Positions 815 to 38,942 of a DNA stretch of 64,000 nucleotides are shown here, one piece after another. The notes under the pieces are model-generated. The model saw only the letters and a list, made by a program, of their open reading frames with translations. It had not been told where the DNA came from and did no database searches. The DNA comes from Escherichia coli. GTDB taxonomy: Bacteria; Pseudomonadota; Gammaproteobacteria; Enterobacterales; Enterobacteriaceae. Position numbers and translations under genes: made by a program. Every line of letters begins with the position of its first letter. The first letter of the stretch is position 1. The stretch lies in the NCBI RefSeq assembly GCF_003334405.1, contig NZ_QOWM01000011.1; one strand, given 5' to 3'.

Positions 815-2053
815 ATGAAAGCATTGACTTATCACGGCCCACATCACGTTCAGGTAGAAAATGTTCCCGATCCGGGCGTTGAACAGGCAGATGATATTAT
901 TCTGCGTATTACGGCAACGGCGATCTGTGGCTCTGACCTCCATCTTTATCGAGGCAAAATACCTCAGGTTAAACATGGCGATATTTTTGGTCATGAATTT
1001 ATGGGGGAAGTAGTTGAAACCGGAAAGGACGTAAAAAATTTGCAAAAAGGCGACCGAGTGGTAATTCCGTTCGTCATTGCTTGTGGCGACTGTTTTTTCT
1101 GTCGATTGCAACAATATGCCGCCTGCGAAAATACCAATGCGGGTAAAGGCGCTGCGCTCAATAAAAAACAGATACCAGCTCCAGCGGCATTGTTTGGTTA
1201 TAGTCACCTGTATGGCGGCGTTCCTGGTGGGCAGGCGGAATATGTCCGCGTCCCTAAAGGGAATGTGGGGCCGTTTAAAGTACCGCCTTTGCTTTCAGAT
1301 GATAAAGCGCTTTTCCTTTCTGATATTCTGCCAACGGCATGGCAGGCAGCAAAAAATGCGCAGATCCAACAAGGTTCAAGCGTTGCAGTCTATGGTGCTG
1401 GTCCTGTGGGATTGTTGACAATCGCCTGTGCACGGTTGCTCGGTGCGGAACAGATTTTTGTTGTTGATCATCATCCCTACCGCTTGCATTTCGCCGCCGA
1501 CCGCTACGGCGCGATCCCGATTAATTTTGATGAAGACAGCGATCCGGCACAGTCAATTATTGAACAAACGGCAGGTCACCGGGGCGTGGATGCAGTAATA
1601 GACGCCGTCGGTTTTGAAGCGAAAGGCAGCACCACGGAAACGGTGCTGACTAACCTGAAACTGGAGGGCAGCAGCGGTAAAGCGTTGCGTCAGTGTATTG
1701 CGGCGGTCAGGCGTGGCGGCATTGTTAGCGTACCGGGCGTCTACGCTGGATTTATTCACGGTTTCCTGTTTGGCGACGCCTTTGATAAAGGGTTGTCGTT
1801 TAAAATGGGACAGACCCACGTTCACGCATGGCTGGGAGAATTATTACCGTTAATTGAGAAAGGATTACTGAAACCAGAAGAAATTGTTACCCACTATATG
1901 CCGTTTGAAGAGGCCGCCCGGGGATATGAGATTTTCGAAAAACGTGAAGAGGAGTGCCGTAAGGTGATTCTGGTACCCGGTGCACAAAGCGCAGAGGCGG
2001 CGCAGAAGGCGGTTTCAGGTCTGGTGAATGCGATGCCGGGGGGAACAATATGA
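815..2053 (+). CDS. ybdR: Zn-dependent alcohol dehydrogenase-like oxidoreductase
   Basis: 412-aa ORF with GHE.MGEVVE and CGSDLH zinc-ADH motifs and a GxGxxG Rossmann motif; GGAGG Shine-Dalgarno upstream. Confidence 0.9.
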
Positions 2054-2283
2054 TCGTCAGGAGTGGTTTTCGAGGTAAAGGACAGCCATGACGATAATCG
2101 CCGCCATAATCAGAAATCCTATCAGGATGTAAAATGCTTCTGCCATGGTTATTCCCACAAACGAAACGGAATAATTTTGCAGCAAAAGTGAACAGTGAGA
2201 ACCAGGAAAAATTGCTGATTTTGCGTAAAGAGGATGCGAGTGCATCCTCTGGGCAAAGCGAGTTATCGCTTGTGCAGATGGGA

Positions 2284-2694
2284 TTAAAGCAGGTAGTCGC
2301 CAGCAGCTTCTGGCTGGTATTCGAGTTCCAGCACTTCAAGGTGGGTTGCAACGCCGCCCGGAAGTTCCCAGTGAATGGAATCGCCAACGCGCAGCCCCAG
2401 CAGTGCGGCACCTACCGGAGCCATAACGGAAAGCTGAGTATTGCTATCGGTCATTTTTGCCGGATACACCAGCGTGCGCACACGCACTTCGCCATCGCTA
2501 AGATTGCGGAATTTAACCCGGCTGTTCATTGTCACCACGTCGTGTGGCATCTCTTCTGGCGAACACATTTGGGCGCGATCCAACTCTGCGTTTAACGCGT
2601 CGGCGATTGGCAAACCAGCATAGGCGGGTTGCTCCAGCAGAATATCGATGCGTTCGGCATCCAGGTCGTTAATGATGATAGTTGGTCTGGACAT
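2284..2694 (-). CDS. rnk: Regulator of nucleoside diphosphate kinase (GreA/GreB-like)
   Basis: 136-aa ORF recognised as Rnk. Confidence 0.9.
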
Positions 2695-2923
2695 TTTTAC
2701 TCCATGTCGTCGGTGCTGCGAGTGTCGCAGATAAACATACCCAAAAGAAAACCCTCACCGTCAGGCGGCGAGGGTTTAACTCACATGATGATACTGACTG
2801 TTGCTCACTCTTTGAAGTGATTTGCGTCACATTCAGGGAATTCCTCAATGCAGCGCATTATGTATAAATCTTAATCGCCTTGGTTTATGGAAGACGAATT
2901 AGCGTGTTTTGTAAATCAGATGA

Positions 2924-3730
2924 TTAATAACCCGCTTTATCAATCACAAAGGTTTTGCCACAGTTACCTGGGTGAGGTTGTGGCAAGAATGAGTTTGCAG
3001 AAAGCGGAGCGTTGATGGCGTCAGCTTTGATCGAGATCTGAATTTCAGTCAAATACGCAGGGTTACCCTGGCACGTTAGCTTAACTGCTTTCACGTTCTC
3101 TTTTCCCCAGCTTTTGGCAAAGGCGGCGTCAAAGTCACGGCGGCTCACTGTTTTACCGTAATTATCCGCAAGGAATTTTCCGGCTTCGCTCTCTTTAATT
3201 TCTTGATTCAGGCGTACCATCGTACCGAAGTATGCGTCCGGATCAAAACCAAAGCAGGCACCGTGTTTGGCATATTCGTAGCGTTCCAGGCAGGAACGTC
3301 CGCCAGCTCCTGGCATGACTTCACTTAGTTTAGCGGCCGTTTCCAGTGATAATCCGGTTTCCGGCGATGAACACATTCGGCTGGCGCGCGCTTCTGGTAG
3401 ATTCGGGATTGGGCGAGTAGCGCAACCGAAGCGCATCCAGCGGCGTTCATCAACACCACGGGCAGCAACCGATTTAGGCAATCCTGGCCACAGACCATGT
3501 ACGGTCAGAAAATCAGCTTTGTTGGTCGTTTCGGTTTGCAGGCGACATTCATCTCGTTCGTTACGATTTCGATCGTGTTGACTCTGGCAAAATCCGGTTT
3601 GCCAGGAGAGGGCCAGGACATAGCGATCAAAATCGCCATACTGTTTTGCCTGCAACGCTAAGGCGTTGGCAGAAGAGAAGGGAAGCAGAGAAACCGCGAG
3701 CAACGCGGCGTTACGCCAGAATGCTTTCAT
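2924..3730 (-). CDS. rna: Ribonuclease I (RNase T2 family), periplasmic
   Basis: ORF 2924..3748; the start at the second in-frame Met gives the signal peptide MKAFWRNAALLAVSLL... and the remembered 268-aa length. Confidence 0.85.
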   Translation of the reverse strand: MKAFWRNAALLAVSLLPFSSANALALQAKQYGDFDRYVLALSWQTGFCQSQHDRNRNERDECRLQTETTNKADFLTVHGLWPGLPKSVAARGVDERRWMRFGCATRPIPNLPEARASRMCSSPETGLSLETAAKLSEVMPGAGGRSCLERYEYAKHGACFGFDPDAYFGTMVRLNQEIKESEAGKFLADNYGKTVSRRDFDAAFAKSWGKENVKAVKLTCQGNPAYLTEIQISIKADAINAPLSANSFLPQPHPGNCGKTFVIDKAGY

Positions 3731-38234: not shown

Positions 38235-38942
38235 ATGAATAAGGAAGAACAATATCTTCTTTTTGCGCTTTCTGCGCCCATGGAAATACTTAATCAGGGT
38301 TGCAAACCCGCGCATGACTCGCCAAAAATGTATACTGGGATAAAAGAATTCGAGCTCTCATCATCCTGGGGAATAAATAATCGTGATGATTTAATTCAGA
38401 CTATTTATCAGATGACTGATGATGGTCATGCCAATGATTTAGCTGGCTTATATCTGACATGGCATCGCTCTTCCCCTGAAGAGTGGAAAGCATTAATTGC
38501 TGGTGGCTCGGAGAGAGGGTTGATTTATACCCAATTCGTTGCCCAAACCGCTATGTGCTGTGGGGAAGGGGGAATCAAAGCCTGGGATTATGTTCGAATG
38601 GGGTTTCTGTCACGGGTCGGTGTGCTCAACAAGTGGCTGACGGAAGAAGAGAGTTTATGGCTGCAATCGCGCGTCTATGTACGAGCTCACCATTACTATC
38701 ACAGCTGGATGCACTATTTTTCCGCCTATTCGTTAGGACGTCTCTACTGGCAATCTTCTCAGTGCGAAGACAACACTTCGCTACGCGAGGCGCTAACCCT
38801 GTACAAATACGATAGCGCCGGGAGTCGTATGTTCGAAGAGCTGGCAGCGGGAAGCGATCGTTTCTATGCCACGCTTCCCTGGCAGCCATTAACTGTCCAG
38901 TCTGAATGCCCGGTAACGCTTAAGGATGTGAGCGACCTATGA
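38235..38942 (+). CDS. ybeU: DUF1266-family protein (paralog of ybeR)
   Basis: 235-aa ORF; stop overlaps the djlC start (ATGA). Confidence 0.85.

What the first reader, a model, noticed from the sequence alone, without database searches (positions are those of the whole stretch)
2057..2146. Candidate 29-codon hydrophobic small ORF between convergent ybdR and rnk
On the minus strand an ATG at 2146 opens MAEAFYILIGFLIMAAIIVMAVLYLENHS*, essentially one transmembrane helix, the typical make-up of small membrane proteins. A weak GGGAAT purine tract lies 8-10 nt upstream. It sits in the 3' region of rnk, so it may be translated from the rnk transcript, or be noise.
Basis: inference. Interest (0 to 1): 0.35.

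Follow-up and report, generated by a model that had tools for sequence, protein, structure and literature searches.

The report
Known small membrane protein gene yldA
The 29-codon hydrophobic ORF is real, but it is the already named and experimentally detected E. coli small membrane protein gene yldA; the one new point is that it is a distant relative of YoaI, a small protein that switches on the sensor kinase EnvZ.

Summary
The ORF at 2057-2146(-) exists exactly as described. It is the known gene yldA. It was detected by chromosomal SPA-tag immunoblot and named in 2018 (PMC6001520). It is annotated in RefSeq and UniProt (YLDA_ECOLI) and has its own models, NCBIfam NF041476 and Pfam PF23689.

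A 29-codon, ATG-started homologue lies downstream of rnk in 35 other Enterobacteriaceae species representatives. dN/dS is about 0.21, third codon positions vary most, and the other sense frames are interrupted by stop codons in most species. The gene is nevertheless dispensable. It is absent from 46 of 80 rnk loci, and four Enterobacter species lost it through four different deletions.

Not in the databases or papers I could search: YldA is a remote homologue of YoaI (hhalign 96.7%, E 3.8e-10; 0 of 400 column shuffles reach the score). The invariant YldA Glu26 aligns with YoaI Glu31, which is required for binding and activating EnvZ. This suggests a YoaI-like modulator of a membrane partner, but that is untested.

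Whether yldA is read through from rnk or has its own promoter is unresolved.

Novelty: already known. Interest: low.

The parts
2057..2146 (-). yldA coding sequence (29 codons plus TGA stop), small membrane protein YldA
   Evidence: Translation. RefSeq annotation WP_000796528.1. Identical to YldA in PMC6001520 Table 1. NCBIfam NF041476 at 57.9 bits against a cutoff of 45. Pfam PF23689 at E 1.4e-20. dN/dS about 0.21 across 36 sequences.
2151..2156 (-). SD-like purine tract GGGAAT, -10 to -5 from the ATG
   Evidence: Read from the sequence. A purine tract (GGGGA, GGGAA or GGAA) occupies the same position in most of the 35 homologues. Function as a ribosome-binding site is inferred.
2147..2228 (-). 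Spacer between the rnk 3' hairpin and the yldA start; 5' UTR and/or promoter region of yldA
   Evidence: rnk-stop-to-ATG spacing is 126-147 nt in 33 of 36 sequences. Mean variability is 0.431, close to synonymous sites at 0.486. Exceptions are a near-invariant A...T pair (CAAAAT, 2179-2174) and a TCAxC block just after the hairpin. The consensus scan calls no sigma70 promoter here.
2229..2250 (-). rnk 3' hairpin AGAGGATGC-ACUC-GCAUCCUCU. It belongs to rnk, not yldA, and is the likely leaky terminator that read-through transcripts would cross.
   Evidence: Free energy -16.7 kcal/mol, z -6.1. Stem arm variability is 0.022. A matching or near-matching hairpin follows rnk in nearly all 46 yldA-negative loci (all but L026 and L083), with compensatory apical-pair changes in Trabulsiella and Pluralibacter. 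The scan does not score it as an intrinsic terminator because it lacks a U tract.
2284..2694 (-). rnk, the upstream same-strand gene and the only constant neighbour of yldA
   Evidence: Annotation. yldA lies downstream of rnk on the same strand in all 36 sequences.
2740..2848 (-). rnk leader (Rfam RF01771) with an attenuator-like terminator. It would control yldA too if the two genes are co-transcribed.
   Evidence: Rfam match at 124.9 bits, E 1.3e-24. Terminator-like stem at 2777-2749 and promoter-like site at 2816-2788. The same promoter-like TTCAAA-17-TATCAT recurs in L002 and L036.
815..2053 (+). ybdR, the convergent gene whose stop is 3 nt from the yldA stop. Its transcript must run antisense through yldA.
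   Evidence: ORF and annotation. ybdR-yldA is listed as a convergent excludon in PMC12288877. ybdR presence is independent of yldA presence across species.

Best explanation
The ORF is yldA, a bona fide gene for a 29-residue single-pass inner-membrane protein.

Shown by literature or by computation here:
- It is translated in E. coli K-12.
- It is conserved at exactly 29 codons under purifying selection in many Enterobacteriaceae, always just downstream of rnk.
- It is a remote homologue of the 34-residue protein YoaI. It lacks YoaI's first five residues but shares the invariant N-terminal Glu (E3 = YoaI E8), the TM-end Val (V22 = V27) and the juxtamembrane Glu (E26 = YoaI E31).

Inferred:
- Like YoaI, it inserts N-out/C-in. 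The helix spans about residues 4-25, and the tail E-R/N-H-W/S faces the cytoplasm.
- It acts by binding a larger inner-membrane protein through the conserved Glu26. The most likely partner is a sensor histidine kinase (EnvZ or a relative), whose output it would tune.
- It is probably expressed at least partly by read-through from the rnk promoter and leader across a U-tract-less hairpin. In K-12-type genomes expression is probably dampened by convergent ybdR transcription.
- It is regulated differently from yoaI, because it has no Pho box.

Rough likelihoods: real gene 0.97; YoaI homologue 0.9; N-out/C-in membrane helix 0.75; partner is a sensor kinase contacted through E26 about 0.35-0.5.
For: Identity: RefSeq yldA. 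The exact sequence is in Table 1 of PMC6001520, which lists proteins detected by SPA-tag immunoblot. UniProt YLDA_ECOLI. NF041476 at 57.9 bits against a cutoff of 45. PF23689 at E 1.4e-20.

Conservation: 35 syntenic homologues, all ATG-started and 29 codons long. dN/dS about 0.21, and position 3 is the most variable.

YoaI homology: all 11 YldA sequences hit the YoaI model NF041475 at 21-33 bits, E 5e-8 to 2.5e-4. Eight of the ten homologues align residues 3-29 to profile positions 8-34; the others are in the same register with slightly different ends. My YldA HMM scores YoaI at 22.3 bits, against 7.0 or less for nine other small TM proteins. It beats 20000/20000 full shuffles and 19998/20000 TM-core shuffles. 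hhalign gives probability 96.7%, E 3.8e-10, score 39.6. Column-shuffle maxima are 16.2 and 25.6 (0 of 400 each), and the reversed alignment scores 12.5. Invariant columns coincide.

YoaI mechanism: YoaI binds and activates EnvZ. S26, V27 and E31 are invariant. E31A and E31Q abolish binding and activation. The C-terminus is cytoplasmic (PMC11429745).

Expression: no sigma70-like site in the spacer of three lineages, and the rnk hairpin has no U tract.
Against: - No experiment on YldA function, localisation or partners exists in the searchable literature.
- Homology to YoaI does not guarantee the same partner. YldA scores below the YoaI equivalog cutoff (22.5 against 45), has Ala where YoaI has its invariant Ser26, and lacks the N-terminal MNDQM.
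- The K-12 allele has no basic residue in the tail (ENHS), which weakens the topology argument.
- yldA is absent from 46 of 80 rnk loci and was deleted four separate times in Enterobacter, so any role is dispensable.
- A near-invariant A...T pair about 30 nt upstream of the ATG could be a -10 element of an own promoter, which would argue against pure read-through.
- yldA appeared with ybdR, but without rnk, among fluoride-induced genes. That fits either an own promoter or antisense contamination from ybdR.
Confidence: 0.5

Rival explanations
1. YldA is a real, conserved small membrane protein, but its partner is not a sensor kinase. It might instead stabilise or modulate a transporter, a respiratory or envelope complex, or membrane properties, as many other small membrane proteins do. 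In that case the shared Glu reflects a general helix-anchoring or insertion feature inherited from the YoaI-like ancestor.
For: It scores below the YoaI equivalog cutoff and has A21 in place of the invariant YoaI S26. It is regulated differently: yldA has no Pho box, while the yoaI positive control has one with 2 mismatches. YoaI itself has an EnvZ-independent overexpression phenotype. The review PMC12648545 describes many partner classes for small membrane proteins.
Against: The residues that are invariant in both families are the ones shown to matter for the YoaI-EnvZ contact (E31) or flagged as invariant there (V27). No alternative partner is suggested by gene neighbourhood. The only constant neighbour is rnk, which encodes a cytoplasmic protein.
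Confidence: 0.35
2. YldA is a type I toxin-like hydrophobic peptide. Its expression is held down by antisense transcription (here the convergent ybdR mRNA), and it damages the membrane when overproduced.
For: It is short and very hydrophobic. It is completely overlapped by the convergent ybdR transcription unit and listed as an excludon. It shows recurrent loss and patchy distribution. Overexpression of its homologue YoaI delays growth.
Against: - The protein is detectable from its native locus in LB.
- yldA is kept in many lineages that have no ybdR and no other convergent gene close by.
- It is a single-copy syntenic core-region gene, with no dedicated antisense RNA gene or promoter detected.
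- Its characterised homologue is a signalling modulator.
- I ran no scan against a toxin or defence library, so this rests on context only.
Confidence: 0.07
3. The ORF is translational noise or a chance ORF in the rnk 3' region without function.
For: ORFs of this length are very common. The SD is weak. The gene is missing in more than half of the rnk loci sampled.
Against: - Length, start codon and the C-terminal motif AVLYLE are invariant or nearly so over 36 sequences.
- dN/dS is about 0.21, and alternative frames are closed.
- Two E. coli alleles with saturated synonymous divergence (pS 0.80) still encode 29-residue proteins with the same core.
- Curated family models exist, and the protein has been detected.
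Confidence: 0.02

Closest known systems
YldA (E. coli K-12; UniProt YLDA_ECOLI; NCBIfam NF041476; Pfam PF23689 'YldA-like')
   Same: Identical 29-aa sequence, identical locus (ybdR / rnk, NC_000913.3 643330-643419), and a full-length match to both family models.
   Different: Nothing differs. This is the same gene. The literature gives no function for it.
YoaI (b1788, 34 aa; NCBIfam NF041475), a PhoB-activated small inner-membrane protein that binds and activates the sensor kinase EnvZ (PMC11429745)
   Same: - Single TM helix of the same register.
- Gap-free alignment of YldA 2-28 to YoaI 7-33 (hhalign 96.7%, E 3.8e-10).
- Shared invariant Glu near the N-terminus, shared Val at the helix end, and a shared juxtamembrane Glu followed by a basic residue (LE-R).
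- Both genes sit tail-to-tail, 0-3 nt from a convergent gene, and both are listed as excludons.
   Different: - YldA is 5 residues shorter at the N-terminus.
- It has Ala for the invariant YoaI Ser26.
- It scores only 21-33 bits against a cutoff of 45 on the YoaI model.
- It has no Pho box.
- It lies at a different locus (downstream of rnk) and is patchily distributed.
- Its partner and function are untested.
Other small or accessory membrane proteins that modulate sensor kinases (MgrB-PhoQ, SafA-PhoQ, MzrA-EnvZ), as summarised in PMC11429745 and PMC12648545
   Same: The general logic proposed here is the same: a small membrane protein binds a histidine kinase and tunes its output.
   Different: I found no sequence relationship to YldA and did not test for one. 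They are larger (MgrB 47 aa from my own knowledge; SafA 65 aa and MzrA 127 aa). This is an analogy only.
Type I toxin peptides (Hok, Ldr, Ibs, TisB, ShoB class; named from my own knowledge)
   Same: Short hydrophobic single-helix peptide overlapped by antisense transcription.
   Different: There is no dedicated antisense sRNA. The protein is detectable natively. The gene is conserved without any convergent partner gene in many species, and it is homologous to a signalling modulator.

Membership tests
YldA (NCBIfam NF041476 equivalog / Pfam PF23689) | Scores above the curated whole-protein cutoff of the family model, with a full-length alignment | tested here: met
   NF041476 scores 57.9 bits against a cutoff of 45, aligning residues 1-29 to profile 1-29 of 29. 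PF23689 gives E 1.4e-20, aligning profile 1-29 of 29 on the N-extended form.
YldA (NCBIfam NF041476 equivalog / Pfam PF23689) | Sequence identity with the experimentally detected E. coli K-12 protein at the ybdR/rnk locus | tested here: met
   Identical to Table 1 of PMC6001520. RefSeq annotates yldA at this position in K-12 MG1655.
YldA (NCBIfam NF041476 equivalog / Pfam PF23689) | Conserved synteny: same strand, about 130-145 nt downstream of rnk | tested here: met
   All 36 sequences are downstream of rnk on the same strand. Spacing is 126-147 nt in 33 of 36.
YldA (NCBIfam NF041476 equivalog / Pfam PF23689) | The protein is actually synthesised and located in the membrane | not testable with these tools
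   Synthesis is reported by SPA-tag immunoblot (PMC6001520). I found no membrane-localisation experiment for YldA. Hydrophobicity and homology to YoaI are the only basis.
YoaI (NCBIfam NF041475 equivalog) | Scores above the curated cutoff of the YoaI model (45 bits) | tested here: not met
   22.5 bits for the window protein and 21-33 bits for ten homologues. YldA is therefore not a YoaI orthologue. Homology at superfamily level is supported separately.
YoaI (NCBIfam NF041475 equivalog) | Invariant Glu31 in the cytoplasmic tail, required for EnvZ binding, and invariant Val27 | tested here: met
   YldA E26 and V22 are invariant in 34 sequences and align to YoaI E31 and V27. The functional role of E31 is from PMC11429745.
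YoaI (NCBIfam NF041475 equivalog) | Invariant Ser26 and the N-terminal MNDxM extension | tested here: not met
   YldA has invariant Ala21 at the Ser26 position and starts five residues later.
YoaI (NCBIfam NF041475 equivalog) | PhoB-dependent transcription (Pho box upstream) | tested here: not met
   There is no Pho-box match with 3 or fewer mismatches near yldA. The only window hit is at 38443-38460. The positive control yoaI has a box with 2 mismatches about 50 nt upstream of its ATG.
YoaI (NCBIfam NF041475 equivalog) | [quoted passage not shown] | not testable with these tools
   This needs two-hybrid or pull-down assays and omrB/ompC/ompF reporter assays.
Type I toxin-antitoxin peptide | A dedicated antisense or overlapping sRNA gene controlling the peptide mRNA | tested here: not met
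   No promoter-like site for a dedicated antisense RNA. No Rfam hit in 1500-3200 other than the rnk leader. Many species keep yldA without any convergent gene.
Type I toxin-antitoxin peptide | Toxicity on overexpression | not testable with these tools
   This needs an induction experiment.

The most novel reading that the evidence does not exclude
YldA is the second member of a YoaI/YldA family of roughly 30-residue connector peptides. It binds EnvZ or another histidine kinase through its invariant juxtamembrane Glu26 and feeds a signal different from phosphate limitation into that kinase, possibly the signal carried by the rnk leader or promoter. The two ancient E. coli alleles (52% protein identity, saturated synonymous sites) and the repeated independent deletions in Enterobacter would then reflect lineage-specific rewiring of two-component cross-talk.
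Probability: 0.3. Interest if true: 0.45.

Novelty: already known. Interest (0 to 1): 0.18.

Why it matters
As a discovery it does not matter, because the gene is named, detected and in all the major databases. It is a useful positive control for the scan, since reading sequence alone correctly picked out a genuine 29-codon gene.

The added value is a testable lead for a protein with no known function. Its homology to YoaI, including the Glu that YoaI needs to activate EnvZ, suggests direct experiments: YldA against the histidine kinases, and an E26A/Q mutant. The population data (two deep alleles in E. coli and recurrent loss in Enterobacter) show how quickly such tiny regulators turn over.

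Tried and rejected
2. A genome-contig scan with the two-allele YldA alignment matched 237 stretches, but none passed tblastn confirmation because the query is too short. I replaced it with an rnk-anchored scan.
3. I first took the invariant hairpin at 2229-2250 for part of a yldA module. I rejected this because a matching or near-matching hairpin follows rnk in nearly all loci without yldA.
4. An SD-sequestering hairpin (K-12 UUAUUCC/GGAAUAA) is rejected as a conserved feature. Pairing probability of -13 to -5 is 0.61 against 0.58 for upstream-shuffled controls, Wilcoxon p = 0.26.
5. No conserved sigma70 promoter was called in the spacer in three lineages. A near-invariant A...T pair remains unexplained.
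6. There is no Pho box upstream of yldA, while the yoaI control is positive.
7. The 62-aa extended ORF starting at the ATG at 2245 and the 33-aa GTG-extended annotation (P0028) are rejected because in-frame stops occur upstream in 16 loci.
8. Supplements of PMC6001520, PMC11429745, bioRxiv 511675, PMC10470546, PMC7815308, PMC6131387 and PMC12288877 held nothing on yldA, rnk or ybdR.
9. The fluoride-induction entry for yldA is not usable as evidence of independent regulation, because ybdR is induced too and overlaps it in antisense.
10. The YldA profile has no relative among solved structures. Structure prediction was not attempted because the protein is shorter than the tool's 30-aa minimum.
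11. nhmmer found a significant yldA remnant in only one yldA-negative locus (L034). The other hits were the start of uspG.

Full report
**1. The observation**

The minus-strand ORF at 2057-2146 translates to MAEAFYILIGFLIMAAIIVMAVLYLENHS*. GGGAAT occupies positions -10 to -5 before the ATG, at window 2156-2151. The ORF lies between ybdR (815-2053, +) and rnk (2284-2694, -). It is 137 nt after the rnk stop and 3 nt from the ybdR stop. The region is the E. coli uspG-ybdR-rnk-rna-citT region. ORFs of this length are abundant, with 73 ORFs of at least 20 aa in the first 4.5 kb. The ORF alone therefore proves nothing.

**2. Identity: this is a known gene**

- A 501-nt query around the ORF matches 5423 of 5426 complete E. 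coli genomes, and RefSeq labels the ORF 'yldA: small membrane protein YldA'.
- VanOrsdel et al. 2018 (PMC6001520) list yldA in their table of proteins detected by chromosomal SPA tagging and immunoblot in LB cultures. The entry gives flanking genes ybdR / rnk, coordinates 643330-643419, length 29 aa and exactly this sequence.
- UniProt has the entry YLDA_ECOLI.
- NCBIfam has the equivalog model NF041476, which the ORF matches at 57.9 bits against a cutoff of 45.
- Pfam has PF23689 'YldA-like', matched at E 1.4e-20.
- No function is reported in the searchable literature. Only three microbiology papers mention yldA.

**3.

I anchored on rnk and fetched 80 loci from species-representative genomes of Enterobacteriaceae. 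A profile search of all six-frame segments found a YldA homologue directly downstream of rnk, on the same strand, in 35 of them. These include Escherichia, several Citrobacter, many Enterobacter, Lelliottia, Leclercia, Phytobacter, one Kosakonia and Pseudenterobacter.

- Every homologue starts with ATG, has exactly 29 sense codons and ends in AVLYLE-x-x-(W/S/R/E). Most have a purine tract 6-10 nt upstream.
- Mean pairwise difference at codon positions 1/2/3 is 0.268/0.204/0.486.
- Mean pN is 0.226 against pS 0.616, and dN/dS is about 0.21.
- Frames +1 and +2 contain stops in 33/36 and 27/36 sequences.
- The upstream in-frame extension (62 aa in K-12) is interrupted by stops in 16 loci.

The frame is therefore under purifying selection, and the 'noise' reading is refuted.

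**4. Distribution and turnover**

*E. coli haplotypes.* E. coli carries two deep haplotypes.
- 3601 genomes have ybdR plus the K-12 allele.
- 1817 genomes lack ybdR and carry the allele MSEALGITAFYIFIAAIIVAAVLYLEQRW. This allele is shared with E. albertii and E. marmotae.
- The two alleles are 52% identical in protein and 55% in DNA, with synonymous sites saturated (pS 0.80).

*Across species.* yldA and ybdR presence are independent, and all four combinations occur. 46 of 80 rnk loci have no yldA. These include Salmonella, the C. freundii complex, Kluyvera and most Kosakonia.

*Within Enterobacter.* Four yldA-negative species carry four different deletions.
- Some leave a 3' ORF remnant. For E. 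cloacae DSM 26481, nhmmer gives E 1.6e-5.
- In E. hormaechei the alignment appears to leave the SD region but no coding sequence.

So the gene is maintained by selection where it is present, but it is repeatedly lost.

**5. Surroundings and expression**

- About 35-40 nt after the rnk stop lies a hairpin, AGAGGATGC-loop-GCATCCTCT, at window 2229-2250. Its free energy is -16.7 kcal/mol with z -6.1. Its arms are almost invariant, with variability 0.022, while the loop varies.
- A matching or near-matching hairpin follows rnk in nearly all loci without yldA, with compensatory apical changes in some. It therefore belongs to rnk.
- It is followed by only TTT(A/C)CG and is not scored as an intrinsic terminator.
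- The consensus scan finds no sigma70-like promoter in the spacer in K-12, the second E. coli haplotype or an Enterobacter. In all three it finds TTCAAA-17-TATCAT upstream of the rnk leader. The leader itself matches Rfam RF01771 at 2740-2848.
- The spacer is nearly as variable as synonymous sites (0.431 against 0.486). Exceptions are a TCAxC block after the hairpin and an A...T pair about 30 nt upstream of the ATG.

Read-through from rnk is therefore plausible, but an unconventional own promoter cannot be excluded. I found no TSS or 3'-end data.

ybdR transcription must run antisense through yldA, and the pair is listed as a convergent excludon. This also makes the reported fluoride induction of yldA together with ybdR uninterpretable. 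A conserved SD-occluding hairpin was tested and rejected.

**6. Relationship to YoaI: the one new point**

- Every YldA sequence tested also hits the NCBIfam YoaI model at 21-33 bits, E 5e-8 to 2.5e-4. That is below its cutoff of 45 but far above any other family. Eight of the ten homologues align residues 3-29 to profile positions 8-34; the others are in the same register with slightly different ends.
- The E. coli YoaI sequence is [34 protein letters not shown].
- A YldA HMM scores YoaI at 22.3 bits, against 7.0 or less for nine other small TM proteins. No full shuffle out of 20000 reaches that score, and only 2 of 20000 TM-core shuffles do.
- I built a 16-sequence YoaI alignment from a 1.84-billion-protein search and a 34-sequence YldA alignment. 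hhalign gives probability 96.7%, E 3.8e-10 and score 39.6 over 27 columns.
- The controls score much lower. The maximum is 16.2 with all columns shuffled and 25.6 with only the TM core shuffled (0 of 400 each), and the reversed alignment scores 12.5.
- The invariant columns coincide: YldA E3 with YoaI E8, V22 with V27, and E26 with E31. A21 sits at the position of S26.
- Vellappan et al. (PMC11429745) showed that YoaI binds and activates EnvZ, that S26, V27 and E31 are invariant, that E31A and E31Q abolish binding and activation, and that the C-terminus is cytoplasmic.
- Pfam does not match YoaI to any family, NCBIfam keeps two separate equivalogs, and none of the papers I read mention the link.
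- yldA lacks the Pho box that yoaI has.

**7. Interpretation**

*Shown:*
- The ORF is a real, translated, conserved gene.
- It is yldA.
- It is homologous to yoaI.

*Inferred:*
- N-out/C-in topology.
- Action through Glu26 on a larger membrane protein, most plausibly a sensor kinase.
- Expression at least partly by read-through from rnk, antagonised by ybdR transcription where ybdR is present.

*Rivals:*
- A different partner class, which is quite possible.
- A toxin-like peptide, which is unlikely.
- Noise, which is refuted.

**8. Verdict**

The finding is correct but already known. Interest is low (0.18). The residual novelty lies in the YoaI homology and the turnover pattern, which give a concrete experiment for an uncharacterised protein.

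Noticed in passing
window 2229-2250 (-): The hairpin after rnk (AGAGGATGC-loop-GCATCCTCT, then TTTCCG) has almost invariant stem sequence across Enterobacteriaceae genera, while its loop and flanks vary freely. Trabulsiella and Pluralibacter show a compensatory apical pair change. That is unusually strong sequence conservation for a terminator-like stem without a U tract. It might be a protein- or RNA-binding or processing element of the rnk 3' end.
   Followed up: partly
window 815-2228 compared with L002 3706-4000: E. coli has two deep haplotypes between uspG and rnk. 3601 genomes have ybdR plus yldA allele 1, and 1817 lack ybdR and carry yldA allele 2. Homology breaks exactly at the rnk hairpin, and synonymous sites between the alleles are saturated. 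Allele 2 is shared with E. albertii and E. marmotae. Allele 1 is closest to Citrobacter koseri and amalonaticus-type sequences (26-28 of 87 nt differ). This suggests an old polymorphism or an old replacement. Phylogroups were not determined.
   Followed up: partly
L034, L035, L040, L046 (about 3460-3560) compared with L027 and L037: Four Enterobacter species lack yldA through four deletions with different end points. Some leave 3' ORF remnants, and in one (E. hormaechei) the alignment appears to leave the SD region but no coding sequence. These are independent recurrent losses of a 29-codon gene.
   Followed up: yes
L019, about 3440-3640: In Citrobacter amalonaticus, an insertion of about 170 nt sits between two copies of the rnk hairpin sequence. 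It contains two further hairpins, one followed by a T run. It could be a small mobile or duplicated element. C. sedlakii (L024) has a different insertion of about 90 nt in the spacer.
   Followed up: no
window 2740-2848 (-): The rnk leader (Rfam RF01771, 124.9 bits) contains a strong terminator-like stem (2777-2749, 12 pairs plus a U tract) downstream of a promoter-like TTCAAA-17-TATCAT (2816-2788). The same arrangement recurs in L002 and L036. If yldA is co-transcribed with rnk, it would be under this attenuator.
   Followed up: partly
L084 8078-8183 and window 2053-2059: Both paralogues sit tail-to-tail almost touching a convergent gene: yeaK-yoaI with a 0-nt gap and ybdR-yldA with a 3-nt gap. 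Both pairs are listed as convergent excludons in PMC12288877. This could be coincidence or a shared regulatory arrangement.
   Followed up: no
L003 758-808: In strain T16R the DNA is 100% identical to the window, but RefSeq annotates a 16-codon 'hypothetical protein' (WP_349809465.1) instead of yldA. This is an annotation inconsistency, not a biological difference.
   Followed up: no
window 38443-38460 (+): This is the only Pho-box-like match in the window (CTGGCTTATATCTGACAT, 3 mismatches). It is at chance level, since 14 of 100 shuffles give at least one match.
   Followed up: no
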